A stretch of DNA of 18,717 bases from a virus. Taxonomy: Duplodnaviria; Heunggongvirae; Uroviricota; Caudoviricetes. The first letter of the stretch is position 1, and the number at the start of each line of letters is the position of its first letter. Position numbers: made by a program. Below, piece by piece: positions 3,001 through 6,000 of the stretch. The DNA lies in IMG/VR virus record IMGVR_UViG_2703718806_000010, positions 1-18,717 of that record. One strand, given 5' to 3'.

Positions 3001-6000
3001 ATCTCTTTCGTCCACGGATTAAGTCCGTACTGGTTGGCGACGATCAGCAGCGCGATGAATTGCGCATCGCTGGCATTACCTTTAAATGCCGTCTGGCGAA
3101 GAGTGGCGATCAGTTCCTGCGGGTCGACAGAATCCATGCCGACGCGTTCAGCCAGCTTTCCGGCCAGTGTTGCAAGTGCTGTACTCATTCGTTTTATACC
3201 TCTGAATCAATATCAACCTGGTGACGAGCAATGGTTTCAACCATGTACCGGATGTGCTCAGCCACGCGTTCCTGAAATTCAACATCGTCATCAAATGCGC
3301 GACTGATTGCCTGTTTGCTGGCACCGTGGCGTTGCAAATGGTCGATGCAGAGCGATTCAAACAGGTGCTGGGGCAGACCTTTTTCCAGGTCGTCCGCCAG
3401 CGCCGTTTCTTTTTCTTCGCGAACGATTTGCTGGTAGTGGCGTGACCATGCCTGCTCTTCAATGCGATCAAAAATTGGGCATGTACTCATCATCCGTCAC
3501 CCCAAAATTTTCAAGTTTGTTTGCAATCATCATTGCAATACCCGGAATTAATGGCGCTGAGGCTATACCTGCAGGATTCGCACATAAACCGTAAACCGCC
3601 GCAATCACCACTTGTCTTTTCCAGTCGAGTTTTTCTAATGATGAAGCTGCTGCTTCGCCAGTTTCATCACTGCAATCGCGATGCGGATCGCTGTCAGCGT
3701 TCTCCTTGTGCGGATGTTCAGCACCTTCCATTTCCTCCAGACCTTTTTCCTGATATTCATTCTGATTTTCTTCATTAAAGGTTTTCTGATACGTTGCGTC
3801 GCCCATCACCGCGCCACAGTCAGGACAGTTGCCGCCGCCAGCCTTACCGCAGGCGGTGCAAACTTTCTCCGTTTCTACTGGCTCAGGCTGTTTCGTTTCT
3901 GGCTCGTTTTGTTGCGTATTTGGGTCGTTCTGTTCCGTTTCTGGCTGATTCTGGTACACAGAGTCGCGGGTCTGGATCCCCTTAACCCATTTCGGATCAT
4001 TCGGGTCGCTAATCCCTTCAACAAATTCTCCGCGAGAGGCAGCCAGTAATTTATCTGCATCGACAGGATTTTTGGGCGGAATGTTTTTCCGGGCTTCATG
4101 GAGTTCTGCCCGCAGTTTCTGATATTTCGCATCAACAGAATTTACCTGTGACTGAGCATCCAGCGGCTGCGTGTCCTGATGATGTTCAGTTGCATCCGGT
4201 TCCACTGTTTCAGCCGTTGCCTGTTCATCTGCCATTGCGCAAGATGGTTGCAGTTTTTCTTCATCATCCTGTTTTTCTTCTTCTGTTACACGCTGCGGTA
4301 TCGGGGCAGAGGAGCGACCGCAGGCAATATCCACGATTTCCGGATCAGGGTTGGCATGATCGGTTTCGGTCAACACTTTGTTGAGATATTCAGTCACGCG
4401 CGCCGGGATAGCCTCAATGCCGATTGGTGCTTCTTTCACGGAAGCCACCACAATGGCGCGGGAATAATCCAGCCCACCGGGCATGGCGATGAATTTGTCA
4501 CGGAAAACAGAAAAGGGCGGTTTATTCTCTGCAACGATTTCTTCAACGCGTTTTGCATGTGCAGGGTGCAGGTTATAAATATCCACATCCATTGAACGGG
4601 CCAGAACGCCAGTGGCAATGTCTCGCGCCAGTGATGCCTGATTGTGGGTAAAGCCTTCGCCACGATCGGTAAGATTTCCGCCGCCAGCGTTAGCACCGGA
4701 AGGCGTACGGGTGATGCCTGTAACACAATTTCCTTTCTGCCATTCTTTTGTCAGCAATCCCTGATCCACATAGTCTGTTTTCATCCAGGTGGAGATGAAC
4801 TTGTCGAATTCGGCCGGGCCGATATGACGGGTTGTTGAGTGAGAGAATGCCTTTCCAACGGATTGTGCCAGTCTTCCCAGATGATAATTCGTCAGCTTAT
4901 CCAGTTCTGGATGTGAACGCACAGCAGTAAGCAGGCTCTGAAGGTAACTGTCTTCTGTGTCCATCTCCAGACGAATCACCTGATTACGTTGTTCTGGTGT
5001 GGCGTGATGCCGGTATTTTCCATCTTCATCCTTGCTGAAGAAGAAGAGGTGAAGGAAGCGATGAGTAAGGCTCAGAGTGGCGACGGGAATTTCACACTCA
5101 GAACAGTTATCGTCGCTGTCCGGGGATTCGCTTTTCTCCACATCATCCGGAATAGTTCCGTCCAGGTTATCGTTGTCATCGCCAGCAGTTGTGGCATCTT
5201 CACCGTTGATGTTGTCATCGAAGGGGATAGCCATCATGGTGATGCCATCGTTACCGCCTTTTTCATAGCGGTTGCAGAATTCAGTATCAAACACGCCTTC
5301 CGGTGGAAGGTCATTCACGACGGGGAAATTTACGCGAACGGGTTTTTTGAAATCATCCTCGTCGTGGCCTGCATCGTCCATGGCTGCAATGCAGCGGGAA
5401 ACTGCGACAGAAAGTTTTCTGGCCTCGGTCCAGAAAAAACCGCCTTTGATGCCAAGGCGTTTTCTGACTTTATCGTTTTTTGCTTCGCAGTGTAGTGCAA
5501 AAGTCTGTTTATCAGCGCTCATTGTATTTAAACCTCTGGCTGGATTAGAATAAGCGACCCTTTGTCTGATTTCTCCGAATACAGTGACGCAGGAGGAAAT
5601 CCGGTAGCCTGCGCTGCCGGATTTTTATTTCAGTGAAAGGTTGCCTGGTTTGCTGTTTTGTGAGTTGTTTTTTCCTTTTCGTGCTGGCATTCAGGGCAGT
5701 CGCACTCAGAATTTTCTCTTGCAAACTCAAGAGCCAGCGCCAGTTCATGGATTTGTTGTGCTTCAATGTTGCTTCTGACGACTTCACATGCGGCATGAAT
5801 ATATGGGCTTGGTGTTTTGCCATTTAACCCACATGAAACCAAACGACTGTCTTTATATTCGTTATTTCCAACTTCTGTAAGCACTGAAAAAGAAAATACA
5901 TAGTCGATTTTGTATTCTTTGCATATTTTACTGATGCGGTTTGCAATTTCATTAAGTTCATTTACTGCTGTCTTTTCGGTTTCAGAAAAGATTTGGTCAG

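What the first reader, a model, noticed from the sequence alone, without database searches (positions are those of the whole stretch)
3468..5522. A 684-aa acidic protein with a zinc-ribbon-like motif and a hydrophobic tail, in the slot where lambda has kil/cIII
This is the largest gene in the window, and I cannot place it in a characterised family.

Visible features:
- a structured-looking N-terminal two-thirds
- long D/E/Q/P-rich linkers, including a near-repeat QNQPETEQ...QNEPETKQ
- a [16 protein letters not shown] knuckle
- a C-terminal ~30-residue hydrophobic segment ([30 protein letters not shown])

Its last 26 nt overlap the gam start, which suggests translational coupling to the RecBCD inhibitor. 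No recognisable kil or cIII homologue is present in the operon.

Early-left accessory slots of lambdoid phages often hold host-takeover, exclusion or anti-defence functions.
Basis: partly seen in the sequence, partly recalled or inferred. Interest (0 to 1): 0.6.

Follow-up and report, generated by a model that had tools for sequence, protein, structure and literature searches.

The report
RecE-family protein lacking its nuclease
The large acidic gene upstream of gam is a known but uncharacterised relative of the Rac prophage recombination enzyme RecE: it keeps RecE's mysterious 600-residue front part, but the DNA-cutting domain is replaced by a short, strongly conserved two-helix tail.

Summary
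The ORF is real: 3468-5522, minus strand, 684 aa.

It is not an orphan. It matches PHROG 607 (E 5e-256) and Pfam PF06630. It is 62% identical to Rac RecE residues 43-587. RefSeq holds the identical protein as 'RecE family exodeoxyribonuclease'.

That name misleads. Homology to RecE stops at residue 625, which is RecE 587, where the minimal nuclease fragment begins. No PD-(D/E)XK domain is present, and the protein scores below NCBI's RecE cut-off.

The last ~45 residues form a two-helix 'QQLxIAAxQGLCANP' tail. The tail is under strong purifying selection (dN/dS 0.06-0.09). It is shared with distant YdfE-like proteins, where it is too polar to span a membrane. A membrane anchor is therefore unlikely.

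The same front part occurs with three alternative ends: PD-(D/E)XK nuclease, DEDD 3'-5' exonuclease, or this tail.

A high-confidence AlphaFold model of the core resembles no solved fold.

The function remains unknown. My best inference is a non-catalytic accessory or scaffold of the phage recombination module. Nuclease-less RecE relatives ('RecE-2') were noted in a 2025 paper with roles unknown.

The parts
3468..5522 (-). Whole gene: nuclease-less RecE-family protein, 684 aa
   Evidence: ORF list and translation. PHROG 607 at E 4.7e-256. PF06630 at 6.4e-13. An identical protein, P0001, is in public databases.
5223..5507 (-). N-terminal alpha/beta domain, residues 6-100
5088..5222 (-). Acidic disordered linker, residues 101-145 (17 D/E, 1 K/R)
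   Evidence: Composition. pLDDT 28-36.
4293..5087 (-). All-alpha core domain, residues 146-410, with conserved [13 protein letters not shown] loop and PGxLDYSRA motif
3963..4154 (-). Helical segment, residues 457-520, carrying the conserved motif [16 protein letters not shown] (497-512)
   Evidence: dN/dS 0.06-0.07. The motif is present in about 32 of 80 diverse representatives, across all C-terminal classes.
3867..3962 (-). Q/N/P/E-rich near-repeat linker, residues 521-552
   Evidence: Translation. pLDDT below 50. dN/dS about 0.55.
3813..3860 (-). C-x2-C-x7-C-x2-C zinc knuckle, residues 555-570
   Evidence: Sequence. The four Cys are invariant in 116 of 120 close homologues. Present in only 7 of 80 diverse representatives. 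Pfam DZR match is below cut-off: 13.8 bits against 27.3.
3630..3812 (-). Hypervariable acidic linker, residues 571-631. Homology to the nuclease-bearing forms ends inside it, at residue 625 (window 3646-3648).
   Evidence: dN/dS about 0.4 with saturated dS. blastn breakpoints against Rac recE, the DEDD type and the 1049-aa type all fall at window 3646-3648.
3501..3629 (-). Conserved C-terminal two-helix tail, residues 632-674 ([42 protein letters not shown])
   Evidence: dN/dS 0.06-0.09 with dS about 1.4. In the alignment of 12 distant tail-type relatives (24-42% identical to one another), 10 of the 15 invariant columns lie in the tail. Distant tails match the C-terminus of PHROG 26058 at 1e-10 to 1e-15. 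Modelled as two helices, 634-648 and 650-672.
3468..3493 (-). 26-nt overlap between the end of this gene and the start of gam
   Evidence: Coordinates. A 1-nt indel separates it from the variant with a 4-nt overlap.
1726..3493 (-). Downstream lambda-type Red module: gam 3194-3493, bet 2403-3188, exo 1726-2406
   Evidence: PHROGs 259, 252 and 149. Window 1728-3469 is 92% identical to lambda 31350-33091.
6267..6506 (-). kil homologue upstream in the same operon. It is context, not part of the protein.
   Evidence: PHROG 294 at E 2.4e-38.

Best explanation
Shown:
- The gene encodes a RecE-family protein that keeps the whole non-catalytic N-terminal region of exonuclease VIII. That region comprises an alpha/beta N-domain, an all-alpha core, acidic disordered linkers, a GISDPxDPKW motif and a zinc knuckle.
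- It lacks the PD-(D/E)XK exonuclease domain.
- At the same junction where other family members carry a PD-(D/E)XK nuclease or a DEDD 3'-5' exonuclease, it carries a ~45-residue two-helix tail with the motif QQLxIAAxQGLCANP. The tail is strongly conserved.
- The gene is intact and under purifying selection.
- In E. coli Stx-type lambdoid prophages it is always followed directly, with overlap, by gam-bet-exo.

Inferred:
- It is not an exonuclease.
- It acts as a non-catalytic accessory or scaffold of the phage DNA-end/recombination module. It would do in trans for lambda Exo/Bet what the same region does in cis in full-length RecE, which raises linear-linear recombination. That molecular activity is itself still unknown.
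- The tail supplies either self-association or docking to a partner. It would stand in for the nuclease domains found at this position, of which RecE is reported to form a tetramer (PMC11610958).
For: Identity:
- PHROG 607 at E 4.7e-256 and PF06630.
- 62% identity to Rac RecE residues 43-587, stopping at RecE 587.
- NCBIfam NF007259 covers only profile positions 1-600 of 877. The score is 926 bits against a cut-off of 1269.

Modularity:
- Among 68 diverse representatives scanned against Pfam, 16 carry PF12684 and 13 carry PF16473.
- Among 80 long representatives, the C-terminal classes are: tail 19, PD-(D/E)XK 20, DEDD 14, unrecognised 27.
- DNA homology to all three nuclease-bearing comparators ends at the same point, window 3646-3648.
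- The 179 nt that follow match neither lambda nor Rac.

Selection:
- Tail dN/dS is 0.06-0.09, against about 0.4 in the adjacent linker.
- The tail is the most invariant part of the distant tail-type relatives.

Context:
- The tail type is followed by gam-bet-exo in the window, in POCJ13, in L008-L010 and in about 45 viral contigs.
- The PD-(D/E)XK type is followed by recT.

Literature:
[quoted passage not shown] 2012).
- Nuclease-less 'RecE-2' proteins occur in lambdoid Rec modules (PMC12315714).
Against: - Distant tail-type relatives (Enterobacter, Lelliottia, Buttiauxella, Cedecea; YdfE_N/YdfE_C) lie between a dicB/kil-type operon and int. They have no gam, bet, exo or recT beside them. The protein therefore does not need an adjacent recombinase, and its role may not be recombination at all.
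- The oligomerisation-or-docking role of the tail is pure inference. No multimer prediction could be run.
- Whether RecE's N-terminal region works in trans is not known to me from the papers I could read.
Confidence: 0.5

Rival explanations
1. It is a host-takeover or anti-defence effector unrelated to recombination. It could be an acidic, partly disordered DNA mimic or an inhibitor of a host complex. Phages would then have repeatedly fused it to nucleases, or used it alone.
For: - It sits in the early-left operon next to kil/dicB-type genes.
- It is very acidic, with long D/E-rich disordered segments.
- Tail-type relatives occur with no recombinase nearby.
- The conserved short motifs (GISDPxDPKW and the GLCANP tail) look like protein-binding elements.
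Against: - There is no match to any PADLOC model. That library does not cover anti-defence proteins, so this is weak evidence.
- The only experimental handle on this region concerns recombination, in full-length RecE (PMC11611040).
- The domain partners are all DNA-end enzymes, the PD-(D/E)XK and DEDD exonucleases.
Confidence: 0.3
2. It is a C-terminally tail-anchored inner-membrane protein, for example an exclusion function.
For: The 19-residue Kyte-Doolittle hydropathy is 1.62 here and 1.70-1.75 in two other E. coli-type variants (P0043, P0064). That is at the usual threshold of about 1.6.
Against: - The segment is Ala/Gly/Pro-rich and is interrupted by the invariant N-P.
- Wimley-White octanol energy is near zero.
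- Only 4 of 22 tail-bearing proteins checked reach 1.6, and the median is 1.06. Distant tails contain Q, D and E throughout.
- AlphaFold models two short helices of 15 and 23 residues.
- Most E. coli variants have an Asp inside the second helix.
Confidence: 0.08
3. It is a decaying remnant. A recE gene was truncated when a lambda Red module recombined into a Rac-like prophage, and the tail is read-through of junction DNA.
For: - The gene lies exactly between a Rac-like block and a lambda-like block.
- Clear deletion derivatives exist in the family, such as P0124, where the RecE N-region is fused to RecT residues 84-269.
Against: - The tail has dN/dS 0.06-0.09 despite saturated synonymous divergence.
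- The tail is present in 19 of 80 diverse 50%-identity clusters and in other genera.
- The ORF is intact in dozens of 90%-identity clusters.
- It is present in at least 96 complete E. coli genomes, 17 plus 79.
Confidence: 0.04
4. It is an active exodeoxyribonuclease VIII, as annotated in GenBank and RefSeq.
For: Database names: 'exodeoxyribonuclease VIII' and 'RecE family exodeoxyribonuclease'.
Against: - There is no PF12684 or other nuclease domain.
- The alignment to RecE ends at residue 587, before the nuclease domain. Reviews place that domain at residues 564-866 or in the last 260 residues (PMC11611040, PMC11610958).
- The score is below the NCBIfam equivalog cut-off.
- Neither model resembles any nuclease fold.
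Confidence: 0.02

Closest known systems
RecE (exonuclease VIII) of the E. coli K-12 Rac prophage, residues 1-587
   Same: - 62% identity over query 51-625 against RecE 43-587. Residues 405-625 are nearly identical in that alignment, and the matching DNA is 85% identical.
- Same zinc knuckle, the same [10 protein letters not shown] motif with near-identical flanks, same core motifs.
- Same position in the early-left operon, after kilR/ydaE-like genes.
   Different: - It lacks RecE's C-terminal PD-(D/E)XK nuclease domain and carries the GLCANP tail instead.
- The first ~240 residues are much more diverged.
- The downstream partner genes are lambda gam-bet-exo, not recT.
'RecE-2' proteins of lambdoid Rec modules (Genome Res 2025;35:1767, PMC12315714)
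   Same: [quoted passage not shown]
   Different: The paper calls them 'distantly related'. This protein is a close relative of Rac RecE. I could not check whether this protein or its phages are in their set, because no supplement is held. The paper, as far as I read it, does not mention the conserved tail.
YdfE-like proteins (Pfam PF27430 YdfE_N + PF27432 YdfE_C) of Enterobacter and related prophages, PHROG 26058
   Same: - Homologous core: 31% identity over residues 137-426, E 4e-29.
- Homologous C-terminal tail: 34% identity, with the same AAxxGLCxNP signature.
- Same position in the operon, after dicB/kil-type genes.
   Different: - Different N-terminal domain and linkers.
- No zinc knuckle.
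- Polar rather than hydrophobic tail.
- Followed by small ORFs and int, not by gam-bet-exo.
- The K-12 YdfE pseudogene fragment itself shows no BLASTP similarity to the window protein.
RecE-N fused to a DEDD (Rv2179c-like, PF16473) 3'-5' exonuclease, e.g. P0110, 829 aa
   Same: 87% DNA identity over gene nt 1-1875. The core is nearly identical (dS 0.05). The junction is the same, at residue 625.
   Different: The C-terminus is a DnaQ-like exonuclease. It is followed by a small ORF and an integrase gene, with no annealase.

Membership tests
RecE / exodeoxyribonuclease VIII (NCBIfam NF007259 equivalog) | N-terminal RecE region (Pfam PF06630 Exonuc_VIII) | tested here: met
   PF06630 at E 6.4e-13, 49.5 bits against a cut-off of 25. 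BLASTP gives 62% identity to RecE 43-587.
RecE / exodeoxyribonuclease VIII (NCBIfam NF007259 equivalog) | C-terminal PD-(D/E)XK 5'-3' exonuclease domain (PF12684; RecE residues ~606-866) | tested here: not met
   No PF12684 hit, whereas full-length relatives have it. The alignment to RecE ends at residue 587. DNA homology ends at window 3646-3648.
RecE / exodeoxyribonuclease VIII (NCBIfam NF007259 equivalog) | Whole-protein score above the curated equivalog cut-off (1269 bits) | tested here: not met
   925.9 bits, matching profile positions 1-600 of 877. K-12 RecE scores 1830 bits.
RecE / exodeoxyribonuclease VIII (NCBIfam NF007259 equivalog) | Exonuclease activity on linear dsDNA | not testable with these tools
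   This needs biochemistry. The absence of any nuclease fold or domain argues against it.
Nuclease-less RecE relatives ('RecE-2', PMC12315714) | Detectable relationship to Rac/Gifsy-1 RecE | tested here: met
Nuclease-less RecE relatives ('RecE-2', PMC12315714) | No nuclease domain by structure prediction | tested here: met
   The AlphaFold2 full-length and core models contain no nuclease-like domain. After residue 520, DSSP assigns only one short low-confidence helix (575-582) and the two tail helices, and most of residues 515-631 have pLDDT below 50.
Nuclease-less RecE relatives ('RecE-2', PMC12315714) | Encoded in the early-left (Rec) module of a lambdoid phage | tested here: met
   The gene order is int ... 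exo, bet, gam, this gene, kil ... N, cI. All are on the minus strand, leftward of cI/cro.
YdfE-like (PF27430 YdfE_N / PF27432 YdfE_C; PHROG 26058) | C-terminal QQLxIAAxQGLCANP...IPxMA two-helix tail | tested here: met
   Alignments. Pairwise 34% identity, E 2e-4. The window's own tail scores only E 0.11 against PHROG 26058, while distant tails score 1e-10 to 1e-15.
YdfE-like (PF27430 YdfE_N / PF27432 YdfE_C; PHROG 26058) | Match to the Pfam YdfE_N and YdfE_C models | tested here: inconclusive
   These models are not in the local Pfam copy. The precomputed list for the identical protein P0001 shows only PF06630, while the Enterobacter relatives show PF27430 + PF27432.
Tail-anchored / single-pass membrane protein | An uninterrupted hydrophobic helix of about 19 residues or more, conserved as hydrophobic in homologues | tested here: not met
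   Kyte-Doolittle 19-residue hydropathy of 1.62 is borderline. Octanol-scale energy is about +1 kcal/mol. The segment is broken by N-P and G. Homologous tails are polar, with a median of 1.06, and only 4 of 22 reach 1.6. No dedicated TM predictor was available.
Zinc ribbon (Pfam DZR PF12773) | Two CxxC pairs scoring above the family cut-off | tested here: inconclusive
   PF12773 at E 0.069, 13.8 bits against a cut-off of 27.3. The four Cys are nevertheless invariant in 116 of 120 close homologues. AlphaFold confidence is low here, pLDDT 26-40.
Lambda Kil / CIII | Sequence similarity to Kil or CIII | tested here: not met
   No such PHROG or Pfam hit for this protein. The Kil homologue is a separate gene at 6267-6506.

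The most novel reading that the evidence does not exclude
The RecE N-terminal region is an autonomous, non-nucleolytic effector with a previously undescribed fold. Lambdoid phages would use it as a portable 'delivery' or tethering module. It would be fused to a 5'-3' nuclease or a 3'-5' nuclease, or capped by the GLCANP hairpin, which recruits a partner or makes the protein multimeric.

In this phage it would work in trans with lambda Red. If so, adding it to the standard Red cassette could give Red the high linear-linear recombination efficiency so far unique to full-length RecE. It would also finally reveal what the first 600 residues of RecE do.
Probability: 0.25. Interest if true: 0.65.

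Novelty: new member of a known kind. Interest (0 to 1): 0.4.

Why it matters
Three consequences follow.

1. Annotation. GenBank and RefSeq call this protein and its ~690-residue relatives 'exodeoxyribonuclease VIII' or 'RecE family exodeoxyribonuclease'. They have no nuclease domain. They are present in at least 96 of 5,426 complete E. coli genomes, including O104:H4 outbreak strains. Function-prediction pipelines that count them as exonucleases are wrong.

2. An open question. The role of RecE's N-terminal ~600 residues has been unclear since full-length RecE was shown in 2012 to boost linear-linear recombination. Here nature supplies that region as a separate protein, coupled to the best-studied recombineering system, lambda Red. 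That gives a clean genetic test.

3. Structure and evolution.
- The core domain is confidently predicted yet matches no solved fold.
- The family shows a sharp, reused module boundary at which three different C-terminal ends are exchanged.
- The tail is the best-conserved element of the nuclease-less class, which makes it the obvious target for mutagenesis.

Tried and rejected
- Sequence search of the whole protein against PDB chains, and a profile of the RecE-N region (A4): no hits, even at E 10 for the profile. A tail profile (A6) gave only noise, best E 0.044 to a designed repeat protein.
- Foldseek against BFVD viral structures: nothing. The afdb50 library was unavailable.
- Pfam on the tail sequences and on the cyanobacterial 65-68-aa proteins: no family. 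PADLOC: no hit.
- Idea that the tail DNA derives from lambda sequence upstream of gamS (the kil / GamL extension region): rejected. Lambda homology starts only at the stop codon of this gene (window 3469), and the tail-coding stretch matches neither lambda nor Rac.
- Idea that the tail is a dedicated docking peptide for lambda Exo/Bet/Gam: weakened. Distant tail-type proteins have no Red or RecT genes beside them.
- RecE-N::RecT fusions as evidence for a functional link: rejected. P0124 is an in-frame deletion derivative of Rac.
- E. coli K-12 YdfE itself: no BLASTP similarity to the window protein.
- Fu et al. 2012 could not be read. The supplement of PMC12315714 is not held. A literature search for YdfE function found nothing relevant.
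- Promoter and terminator scan of 3100-6300: counts within the range of shuffled controls, nothing to report.
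Full report
**1. The observation**

The window is the immunity-to-integrase part of a lambdoid, Stx-phage-like prophage. A 281-nt stretch spanning the tail and the start of gam (window 3440-3720) is 100% identical to E. coli strain 2013C-3033.

On the minus strand the gene order is:
- int, 1-1164
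- a DUF4222-like ORF
- exo, 1726-2406
- bet, 2403-3188
- gam, 3194-3493
- the gene in question, 3468-5522
- a PHROG 2016 ORF, 5630-6016
- a YdaE-like ORF, 6097-6273
- kil, 6267-6506
- further small ORFs
- N, 7925-8269
- cI, 8593-9363

The ORF has 684 codons, starts with ATG, and is the largest in the window.
- It is acidic, with net charge -52 and pI 4.7.
- The near-repeat QNQPETEQ...QNEPETKQ is present.
- The knuckle [16 protein letters not shown] is at residues 555-570.
- A hydrophobic stretch lies at residues 638-667.
- It overlaps gam by 26 nt.

One statement is wrong. A kil homologue is present, matching PHROG 294 at E 2.4e-38.

**2. What it is**

The protein matches PHROG 607 ('exonuclease VII[I]') at E 4.7e-256 and Pfam PF06630 (Exonuc_VIII) above the cut-off.

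BLASTP against E. coli K-12 Rac RecE (866 aa) aligns query residues 51-625 with RecE 43-587 at 62% identity. Residues 405-625 are nearly identical. Nothing aligns after RecE 587.

Reviews place the RecE nuclease domain in the C-terminal 260-300 residues, and call the N-terminal part 'of unknown function' or 'unclear' (PMC11611040, PMC11610958).

The NCBIfam equivalog model for exodeoxyribonuclease VIII covers only profile positions 1-600 of 877. It scores 926 bits against a cut-off of 1269, while K-12 RecE scores 1830.

The identical sequence is already in public databases as 'RecE family exodeoxyribonuclease' (P0001). Phage homologues in POCJ13, 75/02 Stx, PhiR5_2 and phiSTEC1589-Stx1c are annotated 'exodeoxyribonuclease VIII'. 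On this evidence the name is a mis-annotation: the nuclease is missing.

**3. Mosaic structure and a reused module boundary**

- blastn shows lambda homology (92%) from exo to gam, window 1728-3469. It begins exactly at this gene's stop codon.
- Rac recE homology (85%) covers window 3647-4766.
- The 179 nt in between encode the tail and the first eight codons of gam. They match neither.
- Three comparators carry a nuclease: Rac recE, a 1049-aa PD-(D/E)XK form, and an 829-aa form with a DEDD 3'-5' exonuclease domain (PF16473). Homology to all three ends at the same point, window 3646-3648, residue 625.
- The core of the window gene is almost identical to that of the DEDD form (dS 0.05), while neighbouring segments are saturated. 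This points to recent recombination that shuffles ends onto the same front part.

**4. The family and its C-terminal classes**

An exhaustive HMMER scan of 1.84 billion cluster representatives found only 227 clusters at E<=0.001. The family is narrow.

Of 68 diverse members scanned with Pfam:
- 46 have PF06630
- 16 have the PD-(D/E)XK domain
- 13 have the DEDD exonuclease
- 3 have RecT; one I examined, P0124, is an in-frame Rac deletion, and a second, P0212, has only a weak partial RecT match

A motif census of 80 long representatives gives tail 19, PD-(D/E)XK 20, DEDD 14 and unrecognised 27.

Gene neighbourhoods differ by class:
- The PD-(D/E)XK form is followed by recT.
- The DEDD form is followed by a small ORF and an integrase gene, with no annealase.
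- The E. coli tail form is followed by gam-bet-exo.
- Distant tail-type proteins of Enterobacter, Lelliottia, Buttiauxella and Cedecea carry precomputed Pfam YdfE_N + YdfE_C. They are followed by one or two small ORFs and int, with no recombinase.

**5. The tail**

Across relatives that share only 24-40% identity overall, the C-terminus reads L[TS][YFW]xQQLx[IV]AA[LIV]QGLCANPA......[DE][DE][IL]PxMAxx[LI]A.
- In an alignment of 12 such proteins, 10 of the 15 invariant columns lie in the tail.
- Those distant tails match the C-terminus of PHROG 26058 at 1e-10 to 1e-15.
- Among E. coli variants the tail has dN/dS 0.06-0.09 with dS about 1.4. The acidic linker before it has about 0.4.
- It is therefore a selected element, not junction read-through.

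It is unlikely to be a transmembrane anchor:
- Only the E. coli-like subclade reaches the Kyte-Doolittle threshold (1.62-1.75). The median over 22 tail-bearing proteins checked is 1.06.
- The segment is broken by the invariant Asn-Pro.
- AlphaFold2 models two helices, 634-648 and 650-672, at moderate confidence.

tblastn of the tail against 50,697 phage records finds it only at the end of these same proteins. A scan of viral contigs gives the same result.

Free-standing 65-68-residue ORFs with the same QQLxIAAxQGLCANP signature occur in three cyanobacterial MAGs. Whether these are homologues or convergent is open.

The extreme C-terminus comes in two recurrent versions...ENFGGDKS* and ...[14 protein letters not shown]. 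They differ by a 1-nt indel, which sets the overlap with gam at 4 or 26 nt.

**6. Other elements**

- The zinc knuckle C-x2-C-x7-C-x2-C keeps all four Cys in 116 of 120 close homologues, while the residues between them vary. It is shared with Rac RecE.
- It is restricted to the E. coli-like subclade, 7 of 80 representatives. It lies in a region of low model confidence.
- A second short motif, RGEFVxGISDPxDPKW, is under strong constraint (dN/dS 0.07). It occurs in all C-terminal classes.
- The core carries a near-invariant glycine-rich loop (SGxNAGGGxxTDR) and a PGxLDYSRA motif.

**7. Structure**

- The full-length AlphaFold2 model used 79 aligned sequences. Mean pLDDT is 64.6. It gives a confident alpha/beta N-domain (6-100) and an all-alpha core (145-410), separated by disordered acidic linkers.
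- A core-only model reaches pLDDT 88.3 and pTM 0.76.
- Foldseek against viral models finds nothing.
- No nuclease-like fold is present, and no function can be read from the fold.

**8. How it most likely works**

Shown: it is a RecE-family protein without the nuclease. It is intact, selected and modular, and it is coupled to gam-bet-exo.

Inferred: it acts as a non-catalytic accessory of the phage's DNA-end/recombination machinery. In full-length RecE the same region raises linear-linear recombination (Fu et al. 2012, as cited in PMC11611040 and PMC11610958). In every other class, the partner at its C-terminus is a DNA-end enzyme. The RecE nuclease is described as a toroidal tetramer (PMC11610958). 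The helix hairpin may therefore provide self-association or partner docking in place of a nuclease domain.

I put this at about 0.5. The main rival, at about 0.3, is an effector unrelated to recombination, such as host takeover or anti-defence. It rests on three points: distant tail-type relatives have no recombinase beside them, the protein is extremely acidic and partly disordered, and it sits among kil/dicB-type genes.

Three other readings are each unlikely, for the reasons given above: a membrane anchor, a decaying remnant, and an active exonuclease.

**9. Novelty**

- The sequence is in RefSeq.
- A 2025 survey of lambdoid Rec modules mentions 'RecE-2' proteins that lack a nuclease domain and have unknown roles. 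It also mentions DnaQ-like nucleases in these modules (PMC12315714).
- This is therefore a member of a known but uncharacterised kind.
- What I did not find in the papers I could read:
  - the shared junction at residue 625
  - the three-way exchange of C-terminal ends on a near-identical front part
  - the GLCANP tail as the most conserved element, linking the E. coli proteins to YdfE-like proteins
- Interest is moderate. It is not surprising to a specialist, but it offers a direct experimental route to the function of RecE's N-terminal region.

Noticed in passing
window 15409-15492 (+) and 15985-16068 (+): Two copies of the Rfam family sRNA-Xcc1 (RF02221; 79 and 76 bits against a gathering score of 53). 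Each lies just upstream of an Ant-like anti-repressor ORF. The first ORF (15531-15842, 103 aa) looks truncated. The second (16108-16770, 220 aa) is full length.
   Followed up: no
window 6097-6684 (-): A block 81% identical to the Rac ydaE-kilR region. It contains a Kil homologue (6267-6506, PHROG 294) and a YdaE-like zinc-binding ORF (6097-6273).
   Followed up: yes
window 7208-7924 (-): A 238-aa ORF between N and kil. It matches PHROG 2539 (unknown function, E 3e-130). Residues ~100-190 weakly resemble HNH / endonuclease VII / Lar-like zinc regions. No PADLOC hit.
   Followed up: partly
window 14582-15305 (-): A low-GC (38-44%) pair of leftward ORFs inside the rightward nin-type region. One is an HTH regulator (14582-14929; PHROG 1373; weak capH/RmrA-like HTH hits). 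The other is a 137-aa ORF (14892-15305) with no family in PHROGs or PADLOC. It looks like a moron.
   Followed up: no
L018:1525-1731 (+), L019:4583-4780 (+), L017:226-348: Cyanobacterial MAGs carry the same QQLxIAAxQGLCANP signature as the tail. In L018 and L019 it lies in free-standing 65-68-aa ORFs; in L017 only the match was seen, not the ORF. The L019 copy lies directly downstream of a ParA-like ATPase gene. No Pfam family matches the two ORFs.
   Followed up: partly
window 3500-3520 compared with L001 and L008: A 1-nt indel near the end of the gene switches the C-terminus between ...ENFGGDKS* (4-nt ATGA overlap with gam) and ...[14 protein letters not shown] (26-nt overlap). It goes together with a different Gam N-terminus (MMSTCPIF against MNAWLIP). 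Both versions recur in separate clusters.
   Followed up: yes
P0124 (703 aa): A protein in which the RecE N-terminal region (to about residue 525) is fused in frame to RecT residues 84-269, which are 97% identical to Rac RecT. It is apparently a deletion derivative of a Rac-like prophage that removes the nuclease domain and the start of recT.
   Followed up: partly
L051:4137-8108 and similar loci (L055-57, L060, L067, L079, L098): In one subgroup of tail-type prophages, gam is followed by no bet or exo match. In L051, the only one examined, IS66-family transposase genes and other IS-like ORFs follow gam, so the Red module there has been disrupted.
   Followed up: partly
E. coli complete genomes: The common tail variant plus gam junction is present in 79 of 5,426 complete genomes, including O104:H4 outbreak strains (C227-11, FDAARGOS_348/349). 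The window's variant is present in 17. All copies shown are annotated 'RecE family exodeoxyribonuclease'.
   Followed up: partly
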